DNA of 64,000 nt from the NCBI RefSeq assembly GCF_009914755.1, contig NC_060931.1, one strand, 5' to 3'. Shown here piece by piece: positions 2,061 to 10,256 of this stretch; positions within the stretch are counted from its first letter, which is position 1; every line of letters starts with the position of its first letter. The notes below the pieces were generated by a model. It made no database searches, was not told the DNA's origin, and was given only the letters and a program-made list of their open reading frames with translations. Origin of the DNA: the human T2T-CHM13v2.0 reference genome, Homo sapiens. The position numbers were made by a program, and so were the translations under genes.

Positions 2061-2077
2061 TAGAAATAGTTTAGTTA

Positions 2078-2980
2078 GAGGGAGGAGCCAAGATGGCCGA
2101 ATAGGAACAGCTCCGGTCTACAGCTCCCAGCGTGAGCGACGCAGAAGACGGGTGATTTCTGCATTTCCACCTGAGGTACTGGGTTCATCTCACTAGGGAG
2201 TGCCAGACAGTGGGCGCAGGTCAGTGGGTGCGCGCACCGTGCGCGAGCCGAAGCAGGGCGAGGCATTGCCTCACTTGGGAAGCACAAGGGGTCAGGGAGT
2301 TCCCTGAGTCAAAGAAAGGGGTGACGGACGGCACCTGGAAAATAGGGTCACTCCCACCCGAATACTGCGCTTTTCCGACGGGCTTAAAAAACGGCGCACC
2401 ACGAGATTATATCCCGCACCTGGCTCGGAGGGTCCTACGCCCACAGAGTCTCACTGATTGCTAGCACAGCAGTCTGAGATCAAACTGCAAGGTGGCAGCC
2501 AGGCTGGGGGAGGGGTGCCCGCCATTGCCCAGGCTTGCTTAGGTAAACAAAGCAGCCGGGAAGCTCCAACTGGGTGGAGCCCACCACAGCTCAAGGAGGC
2601 CTGCCTGCCTCTGTAGGCTCCACCTCTGGGGGCAGGGCACACACAAACAAAAAGACAGCAGTAACCTCTGCAGACTTAAATGTCCCTGTCTGACAGCTTT
2701 GAAGAGAGCAGTGGTTCTCCCAGCACGTAGCTGGAGATCTGAGAACAGGCAGACTGCCTCCTCAAGTGGGTCCCTGACCCCTGACCCCTGAGCAGCCTAA
2801 CTAGGAGGCACCCCCCAGCAGGGGCACACTGACACCTCACACAGCAGGGTACTCCAACAGACCTGCAGCTCAGGGTCCTCTCTGTTAGAAGGAAAACTAA
2901 CAAACAGAAAGGACATCCTCACCAAAAACCCATCTGTACATCACCATCATCAAAGACCAAAAGTAGATAAAACAACAAAG
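2078..2980 (+). promoter_or_regulatory. L1 5'UTR internal sense promoter and antisense promoter; YY1 site
   Basis: CpG-rich 5'UTR; YY1 motif AAGATGGCC at 2090-2098; antisense promoter position known from L1 biology. Activity is not demonstrable from sequence. Confidence 0.8.
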
Positions 2981-3996
2981 ATGGGGAAAAAACAGAACAG
3001 AAAAACTGGAAACTCTAAAAAGCAGAGCGCCTCTCCTCCTCCAAAGGAACGCAGTTCCTCACCAGCAACGGAACAAAGCTGGATGGAGAATGACTTTGGC
3101 GAGCTGAGAGAAGAAGGCTTCAGACGATCCAATTACTCTGAGCTACAGGAGGACATTCAAACCAAAGGCAAAGAAGTTGAAAACTTCGAAAAAAATTTAG
3201 AAGAATGTATAACTAGAATAACCAATACAGAGAAGTGCTTAAAGGAGCTGATGGAGCTGAAAACCAAGGCTCGAGAACTACGTGAAGAATGCAGAAGCCT
3301 CAGGAGCCGATGCGATCAACTGGAAGAAAGGGTATCAGCGATGGAAGATGAAATGAATGAAATGAAGCGAGAAGGGAAGTTTAGAGAAAAAAGAATAAAA
3401 AGAAATGAGCAAAGCCTCCAAGAAATATGGGACTATGCGAAAAGACCAAATCTGCATCTGATTGGTGTACGTGAAAGTGATGGGGAGAATGGAACCAAGT
3501 TGGAAAACACTCTGCAGGATATTATGCAGGAGAACTTCCCCAATCTAGCAAGGCAGGCCAACGTTCAGATTCAGGAAATACAGAGAACGCCACAAAGATA
3601 TTCCTCGAGAAGAGCAACTCCAAGACACATAATTGTCAGATTCACCAAAATTGAAATGAAGGAAAAAATGTTAAGGGAAGCCAGAGAGAAAGGTCGGGTT
3701 ACCCTCAAAGGGAAGCCCATCAGACTAACAGCGGATCTCTCGGCAGAACCCTACAAGCCAGAAGAGAGTGGGGGCCAATATTCAACATTCTTAAAGAAAA
3801 GAATTTGCAACCCAGAATTTCATATCCAGCCAAACTAAGCTTCATAAGTGAAGGAGAAATAAAATACTTTACAGACAAGCAAATGCTGAGAGATTTTGTC
3901 ACCACCAGACCTGCCCTAAAAGAGCTCCTGAAGGAAGCACTAAACATGGAAAGGAACAACCGGTACCAACCACTGCAAAATCATGCCGAAATGTAA
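2981..3996 (+). pseudogene. L1 ORF1p (RNA-binding chaperone), frameshifted
   Basis: MGKKQNRKTGNSKKQSASPPP...REKG. A 1-bp deletion at ~3748 (gcagaaccctac vs consensus gcagaaaccctac) splits it; the C-terminus is in ORF 3805-3996 (…YPAKLSF…NHAEM). Confidence 0.95.
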
Positions 3997-4059
3997 AGAC
4001 CATCGAGACTAGGAAGAAACTGCATCAACTAATGAGCAAAATCACCAGCTAACATCATA

Positions 4060-7000: not shown

Positions 7001-7886
7001 AGGCATTACCATTCAGGACATAGGCATGGGCAAGGACTTCATGTCTAAAACACCAAAAGCAATGGCAACAAAAGCCAAAATTGACAAATGGGATCTAATT
7101 AAACTAAAGAGCTTCTGCACAGCAAAAGAAACTACCATCAGAGTGAACAGGCAACCTACAAAATGGGAGAAAATTTTCGCAACCTACTCATCTGACAAAG
7201 GGCTAATATCCGGAATCTACAATTAACTCAAACAAATTTACAAGAAAAAAACAAACAACCCCATCAAAAAGTGGGCGAAGGACATGAACAGACACTTCTC
7301 AAAAGAAGACATTTATGCAGCCAAAAAACACATGAAAAAATGCTCACCATCACTGGCCATCAGAGAAATGCAAATCAAAACCACAATGAGATACCATCTC
7401 ACACCAGTTAGAATGGCAATCATTAAAAAGTCAGGAAACAACAGGTGCTGGAGAGGATGTGGAGAAATAGGAAGACTTTTACACTGTTGGTGGGACTGTA
7501 AACTAGTTCCACCATTGTGGAAGTCAGTGTGGCGATTCCTCAGGGATCTAGACCTGGAAATACCATTTGACCCAGCCATCCCATTACTGGGTATATACCC
7601 AAAGGACTATAAATCATGCTGCTATAAAGACACATGCACACGTTATGTTTATTGCGGCATTACTCACAATAGTAAAGACTTGGAACCAACCCAAATGTCC
7701 AACAATGATAGACTGGATTAAGAAAATGTGGCACATATACACCATGGAATACTATGCAGCCATAAAAAAGGATGAGTTCATGTCCTTTGTAGGGACATGG
7801 AGGAAATTGGAAATCATCATTCTCAGTAAACTATCGCAAGAACAAAAACCAAACACCGCATATTCTCACTCATAGGTGGGAATTGA
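4060..7886 (+). pseudogene. L1 ORF2p (APE endonuclease + reverse transcriptase + C-domain), disrupted
   Basis: MTGSNSH…LNVNGLN, CIQETH, GDFN, SDH (EN); QGCPLSP, FADD (RT). Frameshift at ~5512, TAA at 7224-7226, 1-bp insertion at ~7643, 1-bp deletion at ~7845; canonical end IGGN-TGA at 7886. Confidence 0.95.
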
Positions 7887-8111
7887 ACAATCAGATCACA
7901 TGGACACAGGAAGGGGAATATCATACTCTGGGGACTGTTGTGGGGTGGGGGGAGGGGGGAGGGATAGCATCGGGAGATATACCTAATGCTAGATGACGAG
8001 TTAGTGGGTGCAGCGCACCAGCATGGCACATGTATACATATGTAACTAACCTGCACAATGTGCACATGTACCCTAAAACTTAAAGTATAATAAAAAAAGA
8101 AAAAGAAAAAA

Positions 8112-8600
8112 GACTCAAATCAGGCGATTGTTAAATTGTATCTATATGCTTGATTTGTTTATTTTTAAAGGACATGGCCATGCCTTGATTAAACCATAGA
8201 GGTAAATGAACTCATCTTTGAATGCTCAGTTGCTTTGAGTGCCTTCTATGTGCCAGATCCTATGTTCTCTGCTGAGAGTGGCCTGGAGAGTGTCAACTGC
8301 AGGTTTGCGACCACGGGCTCCCTGCCCAGCAGGATCTCCCACCCAGCCACAGACACAAGGAAGACGGAGCCACCTCTTCTCCTGCCATAATCTCCCCGCA
8401 TTTGAAGCCTCTGTCTCTGCTGGGAAGACCTAAGAAGGCTATGTCTACAGCTGCCTTAAAGCTATTAATTTTTAAAAGCCATTCCATGAGAGACCTCAAA
8501 AGTCACCTACCTGGCCAAGATCTAGCCTTAATCGACAATTGATTATCTTTGAAACCAACAAGGCAATAAATCATTAATTCATAATTTGAAAAAAAAAAAA
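8112..8600 (+). other. L1 3' transduction (~477 bp non-L1 DNA) with AATAAA (8565-8570) and second poly(A) (8589-8600)
   Basis: Lies between the L1 poly(A) and the right-hand copy of the TSD AGAAATAGTTTAGTTA (2062-2077 and 8600-8615). Confidence 0.93.
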
Positions 8601-10256
8601 GAAATAGTTTAGTTAAAGAACATCTTCATAAAGTAAAATAATGAGGAATCTGGCTGGGCGTCTTACCAAGGTTCAAGGGTGTCCAGTGTGTGGGAGGCAC
8701 ACACTCTTGTCTATGAATAGGCATTTTCTGGTAATTTGGTGAACTCAGCATGTTTTTTTAATCAGTGGTTAGGGGCTTGTATTTCTAGACATAATGAATG
8801 TATCCATAGAAAAAAATATGCAAGTGAAGTTCAAGTATGTGGGTGAATGGGAAAGCATACTTACATTTGTTAAACAGATTTTTAAAAGTCACTTAAATAA
8901 AACTTAGTATCCAGAACTTGGAAAATGAAGAGTTGGCACAAAAACTTTGGTTTTCGGTGCAGCAGAACATGCCAGGTTCCTGGGACCCTAACTAAGCTGT
9001 CTGCCCCTACTTTCTGCCTATGCACTGCCTTGTCTAGACAGAGCGATAGAGTTCATTATCAAGATTAAGAGAATACAGAGATATGCTCTGATGGAACAGA
9101 AATTATGTTTATTAGTTTTCAGACATAAAGGTTCTACATAGGGAGCAAGAGAAAGCTGACTTAGATGAGATATTGCTCAAAATGAAACTATCATATGGGG
9201 AAACAACTAAATTCTACCACAAAACACACTGAAGACTAGGCCAATGTGCACTGGCACTTTCAGCTGGAAAAACAGGCTCTTTAAATTTGAGGGTAGAAAG
9301 ACTTTTTCATATTAATTAGGCAGTGTGCTGGAGATTCCATATCACCCTTTCACCTTTCTACATTCTGTCATGAGAACCGGAAGCCTGACATCCGTGGTTT
9401 GCTTCAACTTTGCTGTTTTGCCTACTAGCTCACAGTTTAGAAAAGCTTATAAAAGGTATTAGAAGGAGACCAGAATAAGAAGAAGAAGTTGGGGCATTTA
9501 TTTTCATCGTGCCCTCTTTTGGACGTCAGACTGTTAGTAGTACTCTGTCTTTACTAAGGTCACATCTTCTGCCCTGCCATCTACTATGACATCTACAATT
9601 ATTTCTGGATTCTTGTAACCACTCCTTGTCTTTGCTTTTGCAAGCCTAAGGATTGGTAACAGCTTTCCACTATTTCTAGGCCAGTGGTGCTTCAGCATCT
9701 TTTTGGGATTTCCTTTCGCTTTGAAGTTTTTGTCATTGTTGTTGCTTTTCTTAAATCTCTTTAATAAATATAGTTAAAATTATTTTATTAAATTTTCTTT
9801 AATAATTTTATTTTTGTGTGTGTCATCTGTTTTACATCAGGACCAGACTGAAAAAATATTAATTGTAATAGTGACATGAAGAAATAGATTTTCAAAATGA
9901 AATTTAAAAATCGAGTTACTCATTCCTTGAAAAAAGGAAAGGAGACACTTTATTAATGGCTTGAGTGGTAGTTCACAATTACTTACATCATCACTTGTGG
10001 TAACATGGGATGCCACTCTGGTAGAGTTCAAGGCATTGAGAGACCAAGTGCTTGAGCAGTCAGTCATCATCACAGTAGTGATGATAACACTGATTGTGCC
10101 ATGATTGTTTAATGTCTCTGGGGAGAACACATGTAACATGAAATTAATGGATAACTTGAATGGACATCTCTGGGCACAGGTGAAAAAAAATCGTAGGCTT
10201 TTGACAGCAGTGAATGGTTCTACAAAGAAGCTGTGGCTAAATCATCAAGCAAACAC

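What the first reader, a model, noticed from the sequence alone, without database searches (positions are those of the whole stretch)
2062..8615. Full-length young L1 carrying a ~477-bp 3' transduction of foreign DNA
Seen: the 16-mer AGAAATAGTTTAGTTA sits immediately before the L1 start (2062-2077). It recurs not after the L1 poly(A) at ~8092-8111 but ~490 bp later (8600-8615), directly after a second A12 tract. An AATAAA (8565-8570) lies 18 nt upstream of that tract. The empty site reads CTTT|AGAA, an L1 endonuclease-type site. Established: L1 read-through of its weak polyA signal mobilises 3' flanks. Inference: 8112-8588 was copied from another locus that holds, or held, the active parent L1. 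It is a barcode for that source element and possibly for sibling insertions.
Basis: partly seen in the sequence, partly recalled or inferred. Interest (0 to 1): 0.85.

Follow-up and report, generated by a model that had tools for sequence, protein, structure and literature searches.

The report
Old L1 with chr10-derived 3' transduction
A full-length but dead LINE-1 retrotransposon on chromosome 7 dragged along 477 bases copied from chromosome 10, an ordinary and well-understood by-product of L1 copying, with the small twist that the parent L1 is no longer at the chromosome 10 site.

Summary
An exact 16-base repeat (2062-2077, 8600-8615) brackets a full-length L1 (2078-8091), a 20-base A-rich tract (8092-8111), 477 bases of non-L1 DNA (8112-8588) and an A11 tail. 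AATAAA (8565-8570) lies 18 nt before the tail. The 477 bases have exactly one other copy in this genome, chr10:79717526-79718002. It differs at 9 of 477 positions with no indels, and it runs on past the poly(A) site into single-copy DNA.

Two corrections:
- The chr10 site holds no L1 in this assembly. The cargo abuts the A12 tail of an older, 5'-truncated Alu, and no L1 body lies within 20 kb upstream or 10 kb downstream. The donor was probably an unfixed, now lost allele.
- The L1 is not young in the active sense. ORF1 is frameshifted, ORF2 has at least four lesions, and its nearest relatives are only 96-98% identical.

No sibling insertion carries the barcode. This is a textbook 3' transduction of low interest.

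The parts
2062..2077 (+). 5' copy of the 16-bp target-site duplication. The empty site reads CTTT|AGAA, which is TTCT/AAAG on the nicked strand.
   Evidence: exact, only two copies in the window, none expected by chance.
2078..2980 (+). L1 5'UTR, full length (903 bases), of the short form without an extra ~130 bases.
   Evidence: One search shows the start; one search gives the sequence up to the ORF1 ATG at 2981; 96-97% identity over the whole stretch to many other full-length L1 5'UTRs.
2981..3996 (+). ORF1 remnant. It is open for 285 aa, then a frameshift near 3745. The original stop at 3994 is now in another frame.
   Evidence: Pfam Transposase_22 (E 7.9e-61) and Tnp_22_trimer (E 3.4e-32).
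4060..7886 (+). ORF2 remnant (endonuclease and reverse transcriptase), broken by at least two frameshifts (about 5450-5536 and about 7550-7719) and by in-frame stops at 5793 and 7224.
   Evidence: Exo_endo_phos (E 8.8e-22) and RVT_1 (E 1.9e-29).
7887..8091 (+). L1 3'UTR. Its own AATAAA starts at 8089 and was read through.
   Evidence: 98% identity to other L1 3' ends.
8092..8111 (+). Internal A-rich tract, A7-G-A5-G-A6. It is read as the donor L1's genomic tail plus the A-rich target at the donor site.
   Evidence: On chr10 the same position holds an Alu A12 tail.
8112..8588 (+). 477-base transduced cargo copied from chr10:79717526-79718002. It is non-coding and not a repeat.
   Evidence: 468 of 477 identical, no indels, and two copies genome-wide; no Rfam match; no convincing ORF.
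8565..8570 (+). The AATAAA poly(A) signal that was used. Cleavage is after 8588, 18 nt downstream.
   Evidence: homology to chr10 ends exactly at 8588.
8589..8599 (+). Untemplated A11 tail of the retrotransposed RNA.
   Evidence: It is absent from chr10.
8600..8615 (+). 3' copy of the 16-bp target-site duplication.

Best explanation
This is one L1 retrotransposition event with a 3' transduction.

- A donor L1 once lay on chr10 in + orientation, in or at the end of the A-tail of an older Alu, directly 5' of chr10:79717526.
- Its transcript ran through the weak L1 AATAAA and an ATTAAA 97 bases further on. It was cleaved and polyadenylated 18 nt after an AATAAA 477 bases downstream.
- That RNA (full-length L1, A-rich tract, 477 nt, poly(A)) was inserted by target-primed reverse transcription at a TTCT/AAAG site on chr7, creating a 16-bp target-site duplication.
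- The donor L1 is not in this assembly. It most likely never reached fixation and was lost.
- The event is several million years old, and the chr7 copy has since decayed into a dead element.

Shown here: the structure of the insert, the source of the cargo, the direction of copying, the absence of an L1 at the source, and the absence of siblings. Inferred: that a donor L1 existed at chr10, and what became of it.
For: 1. An exact 16-bp repeat brackets the whole composite, not the L1 alone.
2. The L1 is full length and keeps its own AATAAA and an A-rich tract before the cargo.
3. The cargo ends 18 nt after an AATAAA and is followed by a pure A11 tail.
4. The cargo has exactly one other copy genome-wide, on chr10, with 468 of 477 bases identical and no indels. 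Sub-fragments give the same two places.
5. chr10 continues past the cleavage point into single-copy DNA, whereas chr7 switches to A11 plus the repeat. So chr10 is the parent and chr7 the copy.
6. Homology starts exactly at an A tract in both loci, as expected if the donor sat in an A-rich L1 endonuclease target.
7. The internal tract carries two G in 20 bases, while the terminal tail of the same insertion is pure A. This fits a tract copied from an already aged genomic tail.
8. Donor L1s missing from a reference assembly and traced only by their transduction are documented (PMC6425141, passages seen).
Against: - The one direct corroboration, an L1 directly 5' of the cargo at the source, is missing. 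chr10 has an Alu A12 tail there. BLAST of the chr7 L1 against 20 kb upstream and 10 kb downstream found only three old fragments: 236 bp at 90%, 194 bp at 73% and 94 bp at 70%. None is adjacent.
- No sibling insertion with the same barcode supports an active donor at that site.
- No ape or pangenome sequence could be searched, so neither a filled chr10 allele nor an empty chr7 allele has been seen.
Confidence: 0.85

Rival explanations
1. Template-switch chimera. L1 reverse transcriptase primed in trans on the poly(A) tail of a host chr10 transcript ending at the AATAAA. It copied 477 nt up to the Alu A-tail inside that RNA. The T-rich cDNA end then paired with the poly(A) tail of an L1 mRNA, and the enzyme copied the whole L1. 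No donor L1 ever sat on chr10.
For: - There is no L1 at or near the chr10 source.
- The junction lies exactly at an Alu A12 tract, which could give the microhomology needed for a switch onto a poly(A) tail.
- There are no siblings.
Against: - It needs trans priming on a non-L1 RNA followed by full-length copying of a 6-kb L1. By recall, described chimeric retrocopies have the L1 or mRNA as the 3' part and a small RNA as the 5' part, which is the opposite order.
- No other retrocopy of such a chr10 transcript exists.
- The internal A tract has two G while the terminal tail and the present chr10 Alu tail are pure A. Two later mutations in 20 bases would be needed.
- Whether any host transcript exists there could not be checked.
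Confidence: 0.09
2. Same transduction, but the donor L1 was once fixed at chr10 and was later removed precisely by recombination between its A-rich target-site duplications, restoring an apparently empty site.
For: A donor inserted in an A12 tract would be flanked by poly(A) direct repeats, which can recombine. The chr10 site looks clean.
Against: - By recall, precise excision of L1 is very rare, whereas loss of an unfixed insertion by drift is the usual fate.
- The Alu tail and a possible Alu target-site duplication (about 12 of 13 positions matching with one gap, by eye) look undisturbed.
Confidence: 0.04
3. Not one event. Either a retrocopy of the chr10 segment and an L1 inserted separately side by side, or the chr7/chr10 similarity is a DNA-level duplication or gene conversion.
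For: None found.
Against: - The only direct repeat brackets the whole composite. The L1 alone has no repeat of its own, since the bases after its A tract do not match those before its 5' end.
- Homology to chr10 ends exactly at an untemplated A tail 18 nt after an AATAAA and starts exactly at an A tract. These are marks of an RNA copy, not of a DNA duplication.
- The flanks of both loci are single copy.
Confidence: 0.01

Closest known systems
L1 3' transduction (read-through of the L1 poly(A) signal). Described by Moran 1999, Goodier 2000, Pickeral 2000 and Szak 2003, all recalled and not read here. Catalogued for T2T-CHM13 with TSDfinder in the Hoyt et al. preprint 10.1101/2021.07.12.451456 (passages seen).
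   Same: - A target-site duplication brackets L1 plus cargo.
- The L1's own AATAAA and A tract are kept.
- The cargo ends at a downstream AATAAA plus a poly(A) tail.
- The cargo maps to a single other locus that continues past the cleavage site.
- The target is an L1 endonuclease-type site.
   Different: The source locus has no L1 in this assembly, so the donor is known only through this offspring. The preprint's top-confidence class rests on identified parents. Its tables could not be opened, so whether this event is listed is unknown.
Transduction families whose donor is absent from the reference genome, for example the family in PMC6425141 (passages seen).
   Same: The donor position is inferred from where the transduced sequence maps, with the L1 itself missing from the reference.
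   Different: Those donors are L1HS-Ta elements still polymorphic in living humans, with several offspring. Here the event is about 2% diverged, the offspring is dead, it is the only one, and the donor is probably extinct.
Chimeric retrocopies formed by L1 reverse-transcriptase template switching (U6-L1 and similar; Buzdin et al., recalled, not read here).
   Same: Two unrelated transcribed sequences are joined inside one target-site duplication with one terminal poly(A) tail.
   Different: In the known chimeras the L1 or mRNA is the 3' part. Here the full-length L1, with its own tail, is the 5' part, as expected for read-through.

Membership tests
L1 insertion with 3' transduction | One target-site duplication brackets L1 plus the extra 3' DNA. 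| tested here: met
   An exact 16-mer at 2062-2077 and 8600-8615, with only two copies in the window and none expected by chance.
L1 insertion with 3' transduction | The L1 3' end, with its own poly(A) signal and A tract, is followed directly by non-L1 DNA. | tested here: met
   AATAAA at 8089, an A-rich tract at 8092-8111, then unique DNA from 8112.
L1 insertion with 3' transduction | The extra DNA ends 10-30 nt after a poly(A) signal and carries an untemplated poly(A) tail. | tested here: met
   AATAAA at 8565-8570, last templated base 8588 (18 nt later), and A11 absent from chr10.
L1 insertion with 3' transduction | The extra DNA is a copy of another locus that continues beyond the cleavage site. 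| tested here: met
   chr10:79717526-79718002, 468 of 477 identical, and it continues into single-copy DNA.
L1 insertion with 3' transduction | An L1 endonuclease-type target (T-rich/A on the nicked strand). | tested here: met
   The empty site CTTT|AGAA equals TTCT/AAAG on the other strand. The consensus TTTT/AA is recalled.
L1 insertion with 3' transduction | Corroborating, not defining: an L1 in the same orientation sits directly 5' of the cargo at the source locus. | tested here: not met
   In this assembly an Alu A12 tail abuts the cargo, and no L1 body lies within 20 kb upstream or 10 kb downstream. Donors can be unfixed or missing from a reference, so this weakens the case but does not exclude membership.
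LINE-1 (primate L1PA lineage), full length | ORF1p domains, ORF2p endonuclease and reverse transcriptase, and a complete 5'UTR. | tested here: met
   Pfam Transposase_22, Tnp_22_trimer, Exo_endo_phos and RVT_1. The 5'UTR aligns over all 903 bases to other full-length copies.
Young or retrotransposition-competent L1HS-Ta | Intact ORF1 and ORF2. | tested here: not met
   ORF1 is open for 285 aa and then frameshifted. ORF2 is in pieces of 492, 461 and 145 aa, with at least two frameshifts and two in-frame stops.
Young or retrotransposition-competent L1HS-Ta | Ta-type ACA (or pre-Ta ACG) trinucleotide in the 3'UTR. This diagnostic is recalled. | tested here: not met
   The window reads GAG at that place, about 7996-7998.
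Template-switch chimeric retrocopy | The two parts come from separate RNAs, that is, no donor locus ever joined them. | not testable with these tools
   It needs ape or pangenome sequence of the chr10 site and transcript annotation there. Neither is available here.

The most novel reading that the evidence does not exclude
The composite is not a read-through product. It is a template-switch chimera in which L1 reverse transcriptase began on a chr10 host transcript and, on reaching the Alu A-tail in that RNA, jumped onto the poly(A) tail of an L1 mRNA and copied it in full. That would be a chimera in the reverse order to the described ones, and one that mimics a 3' transduction. If such mimics exist, transductions whose source lacks an L1 cannot be taken as proof of lost donors.
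Probability: 0.09. Interest if true: 0.45.

Novelty: new member of a known kind. Interest (0 to 1): 0.2.

Why it matters
It matters little.

- The insertion is a clean worked example of L1 3' transduction in which the cargo pins the donor to chr10:79717525/6.
- It shows that the donor allele has not survived in this genome, so it is a trace of a source element that can no longer be seen directly.
- It moved 477 bases of non-coding, non-repeat DNA with no recognisable RNA family or reading frame, so no exon shuffling or gene duplication is involved.
- The L1 is dead, so it is not a candidate active source element.
- Events of this kind have been catalogued genome-wide, including for this assembly.

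Tried and rejected
- **Sibling insertions.** Searches of the own genome with the whole cargo, its first 129 bases and its last 189 bases each returned only chr7 and chr10. The DNA beyond the chr10 cleavage site is single copy apart from five weak short hits of 77-97% over 33-80 bases. No longer-read-through siblings were found.
- **An L1 near the chr10 source.** BLAST of the chr7 L1 against chr10:79697526-79728002 gave three old fragments only.
- **A paralogous empty site for chr7.** The 5' flank 1760-2077 is single copy apart from one 44-base hit.
- **A closest-relative L1.** With the 5'UTR and the last 1.2 kb as queries, the best hits were 97% and 98%, with no outlier. Only 40 of 5709 and 40 of 4526 candidates were scored, so a closer relative may have been missed.
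- **Functional cargo.** There was no Rfam match at E up to 1 and only short stop-to-stop frames.
- **Nested insertions and DNA-level duplication.** Both were rejected on the junction structure.
- **Papers.** Szak 2003 and the journal version of Hoyt 2022 are not held. The Hoyt preprint was found instead, but its supplementary tables are closed. A review held nothing on lost donors.
- **Subfamily name.** 'L1PA2/L1PA3 grade' rests on recalled diagnostics plus pairwise identities.
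Full report
**Observation**

- The 16-mer AGAAATAGTTTAGTTA lies at 2062-2077 and 8600-8615. These are its only two occurrences in the window even with one mismatch allowed, and no shuffle gave two.
- The first copy is followed at 2078 by the canonical-looking start of an L1 5'UTR.
- The L1 ends with its own AATAAA at 8089 and a 20-base A-rich tract, A7-G-A5-G-A6, at 8092-8111.
- 8112-8588 is not L1. 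AATAAA at 8565-8570 is followed 18 nt later by an A run, and then the second copy of the 16-mer.
- The A run proper is 8589-8599, which is 11 A. It reads as 12 only with the first base of the repeat.
- The pre-insertion site reads CTTT|AGAA, that is, TTCT/AAAG on the nicked strand. This is close to the recalled L1 endonuclease consensus TTTT/AA.

**The L1**

Pfam finds the ORF1p RNA-binding and trimerisation domains, and the ORF2p endonuclease and reverse-transcriptase domains, in the open pieces.

The element is full length, with a 903-base 5'UTR, ORF1 from 2981 and ORF2 from 4060. It is dead.
- ORF1 is open for 285 codons, then shifts frame near 3745, leaving its original stop at 3994 in another frame.
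- ORF2 is split into pieces of 492, 461 and 145 codons. It has at least two frameshifts (about 5450-5536 and about 7550-7719) and in-frame stops at 5793 and 7224.

The 3'UTR has GAG where, by recall, Ta elements have ACA and pre-Ta elements have ACG.

The nearest copies found in the genome are 96-97% identical over the 5'UTR and 98% over the last 1.2 kb. Only 40 of 5709 and 40 of 4526 candidates were scored.

By recall, the short 5'UTR together with these identities puts it at L1PA2 to late L1PA3 grade. No named reference was available to fix the subfamily, so 'young' holds only in the evolutionary sense.

**Where the cargo came from**

A search of the whole assembly with 8112-8588 returned two places: the window itself and chr10:79717526-79718002, + strand. 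The first 129 and last 189 bases give the same two places.

The two copies differ at 9 of 477 positions, six transitions and three transversions, with no indels.
- At 8240-8241 the copies read TG against CA, the pattern of a CpG that decayed separately in each copy.
- At 8398 chr7 keeps a CpG that chr10 has lost.

The boundaries show the direction of copying.
- At the 3' end, identity stops exactly at 8588. chr7 goes on with A11 and the repeat, while chr10 goes on with ordinary single-copy DNA.
- At the 5' end, identity starts exactly after an A tract in both loci.

This is what an RNA copy cleaved at the chr10 AATAAA looks like. It rules out a DNA-level duplication. It also rules out two side-by-side insertions, because the L1 alone has no flanking repeat of its own.

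**What is at the source**

Here the result departs from the simplest expectation. Directly 5' of the chr10 segment there is no L1. Instead there is the right arm of an Alu, 5'-truncated or a free right monomer, ending in A12.

Its sequence looks like an older Alu type (recalled diagnostics). By eye it has a possible target-site duplication of its own, about 12 of 13 positions matching with one gap. The site therefore looks like an undisturbed pre-integration allele.

BLAST of the chr7 L1 against 20 kb upstream and 10 kb downstream of the segment, on both strands, found only three old fragments: 236 bp at 90% lying 5.4 kb downstream, 194 bp at 73% and 94 bp at 70%.

**Mechanism**

The best reading is standard read-through transduction from a donor L1 that sat in the Alu tail on chr10.
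- In the L1's sense orientation the target would be ...TC|AAAA..., an acceptable endonuclease site. By recall, Alu tails are common targets.
- The donor's transcript bypassed its own AATAAA and an ATTAAA at 8188, and used the AATAAA at 8565.
- The internal A-rich tract would then be the donor's genomic tail plus the A-rich duplicated target.
- That tract carries two G, while the terminal tail of the same insertion is pure A. This fits a tract that had already aged in the genome before it was transcribed.

The donor is absent from this assembly. A donor that produced an offspring while polymorphic and was then lost by drift is the ordinary expectation. Donors missing from a reference and located only through transductions are documented for living human polymorphisms (PMC6425141, passages seen).

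**Age**

The divergence is 9/477 = 1.9%, with a Poisson 95% range of roughly 0.9-3.6%. This is about 1.5 times the recalled human-chimpanzee divergence of about 1.2%. The insertion is therefore probably older than the human-chimpanzee split. On this count alone a somewhat younger date is not excluded. The L1's own 2-4% distance from its nearest relatives agrees.

A donor allele still segregating in humans is therefore unlikely.

**Rivals**

- **Template switch (about 9%).** Reverse transcriptase primes on a host chr10 transcript, reaches the Alu A-tail in that RNA, and jumps onto the poly(A) tail of an L1 mRNA.
  - It explains the missing donor and the junction at the A tract.
  - It needs trans priming followed by full-length L1 copying.
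  - It has the parts in the reverse order to described chimeras (recalled).
  - It needs two later A-to-G changes in 20 bases.
  - It has no supporting retrocopies.
- **Precise excision of a once-fixed donor (about 4%).** This cannot be told apart from loss by drift without ape sequences.
- **Nested insertion or duplication (about 1%).** This is contradicted by the junctions.

**What is known**

L1 3' transduction is textbook. The T2T-CHM13 repeat paper (preprint, passages seen) ran a modified TSDfinder over 971,811 L1s and reports 183 top-confidence L1 3' transductions. It notes that its stringent count is an underestimate.

An event whose parent locus lacks an L1 may sit in a lower confidence bin.

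Population studies map such events routinely (PMC9311842, passages seen).

**Verdict**

- The cargo's origin is now pinned to chr10:79717526-79718002.
- The donor L1 is absent there.
- There are no siblings.
- The cargo has no recognisable function.
- The L1 is an old, inactive copy.

This is an ordinary member of a well-known kind and of low interest.

Noticed in passing
window 49419-50610 (- strand): A second L1 3' end in the same window is 98% identical to the last 1.2 kb of this L1. It lies inside the masked stretch 49462-51460 and is presumably a 5'-truncated copy of similar age.
   Followed up: no
window 2323-2920: The RefSeq 'enhancer' feature given in the hub's annotation lies wholly inside the L1 5'UTR, that is, the L1's internal promoter region. 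It probably reflects L1 promoter activity rather than a locus-specific enhancer.
   Followed up: no
L002 1326-1500 (chr10:79717351-79717525): An Alu right arm only, with an A12 tail. It has a possible degenerate target-site duplication, with AAAAGATCTGAAAT before it and AAAAGACTCAAAT after it. The L1 donor site inferred here lies in or at the end of this tail.
   Followed up: partly
L005 5401-5636 (chr10:79723403-79723638): An old 236-bp L1 3'-end fragment, 90% identical to the chr7 L1, lies 5.4 kb downstream of the source segment. It is unrelated to the transduction.
   Followed up: no
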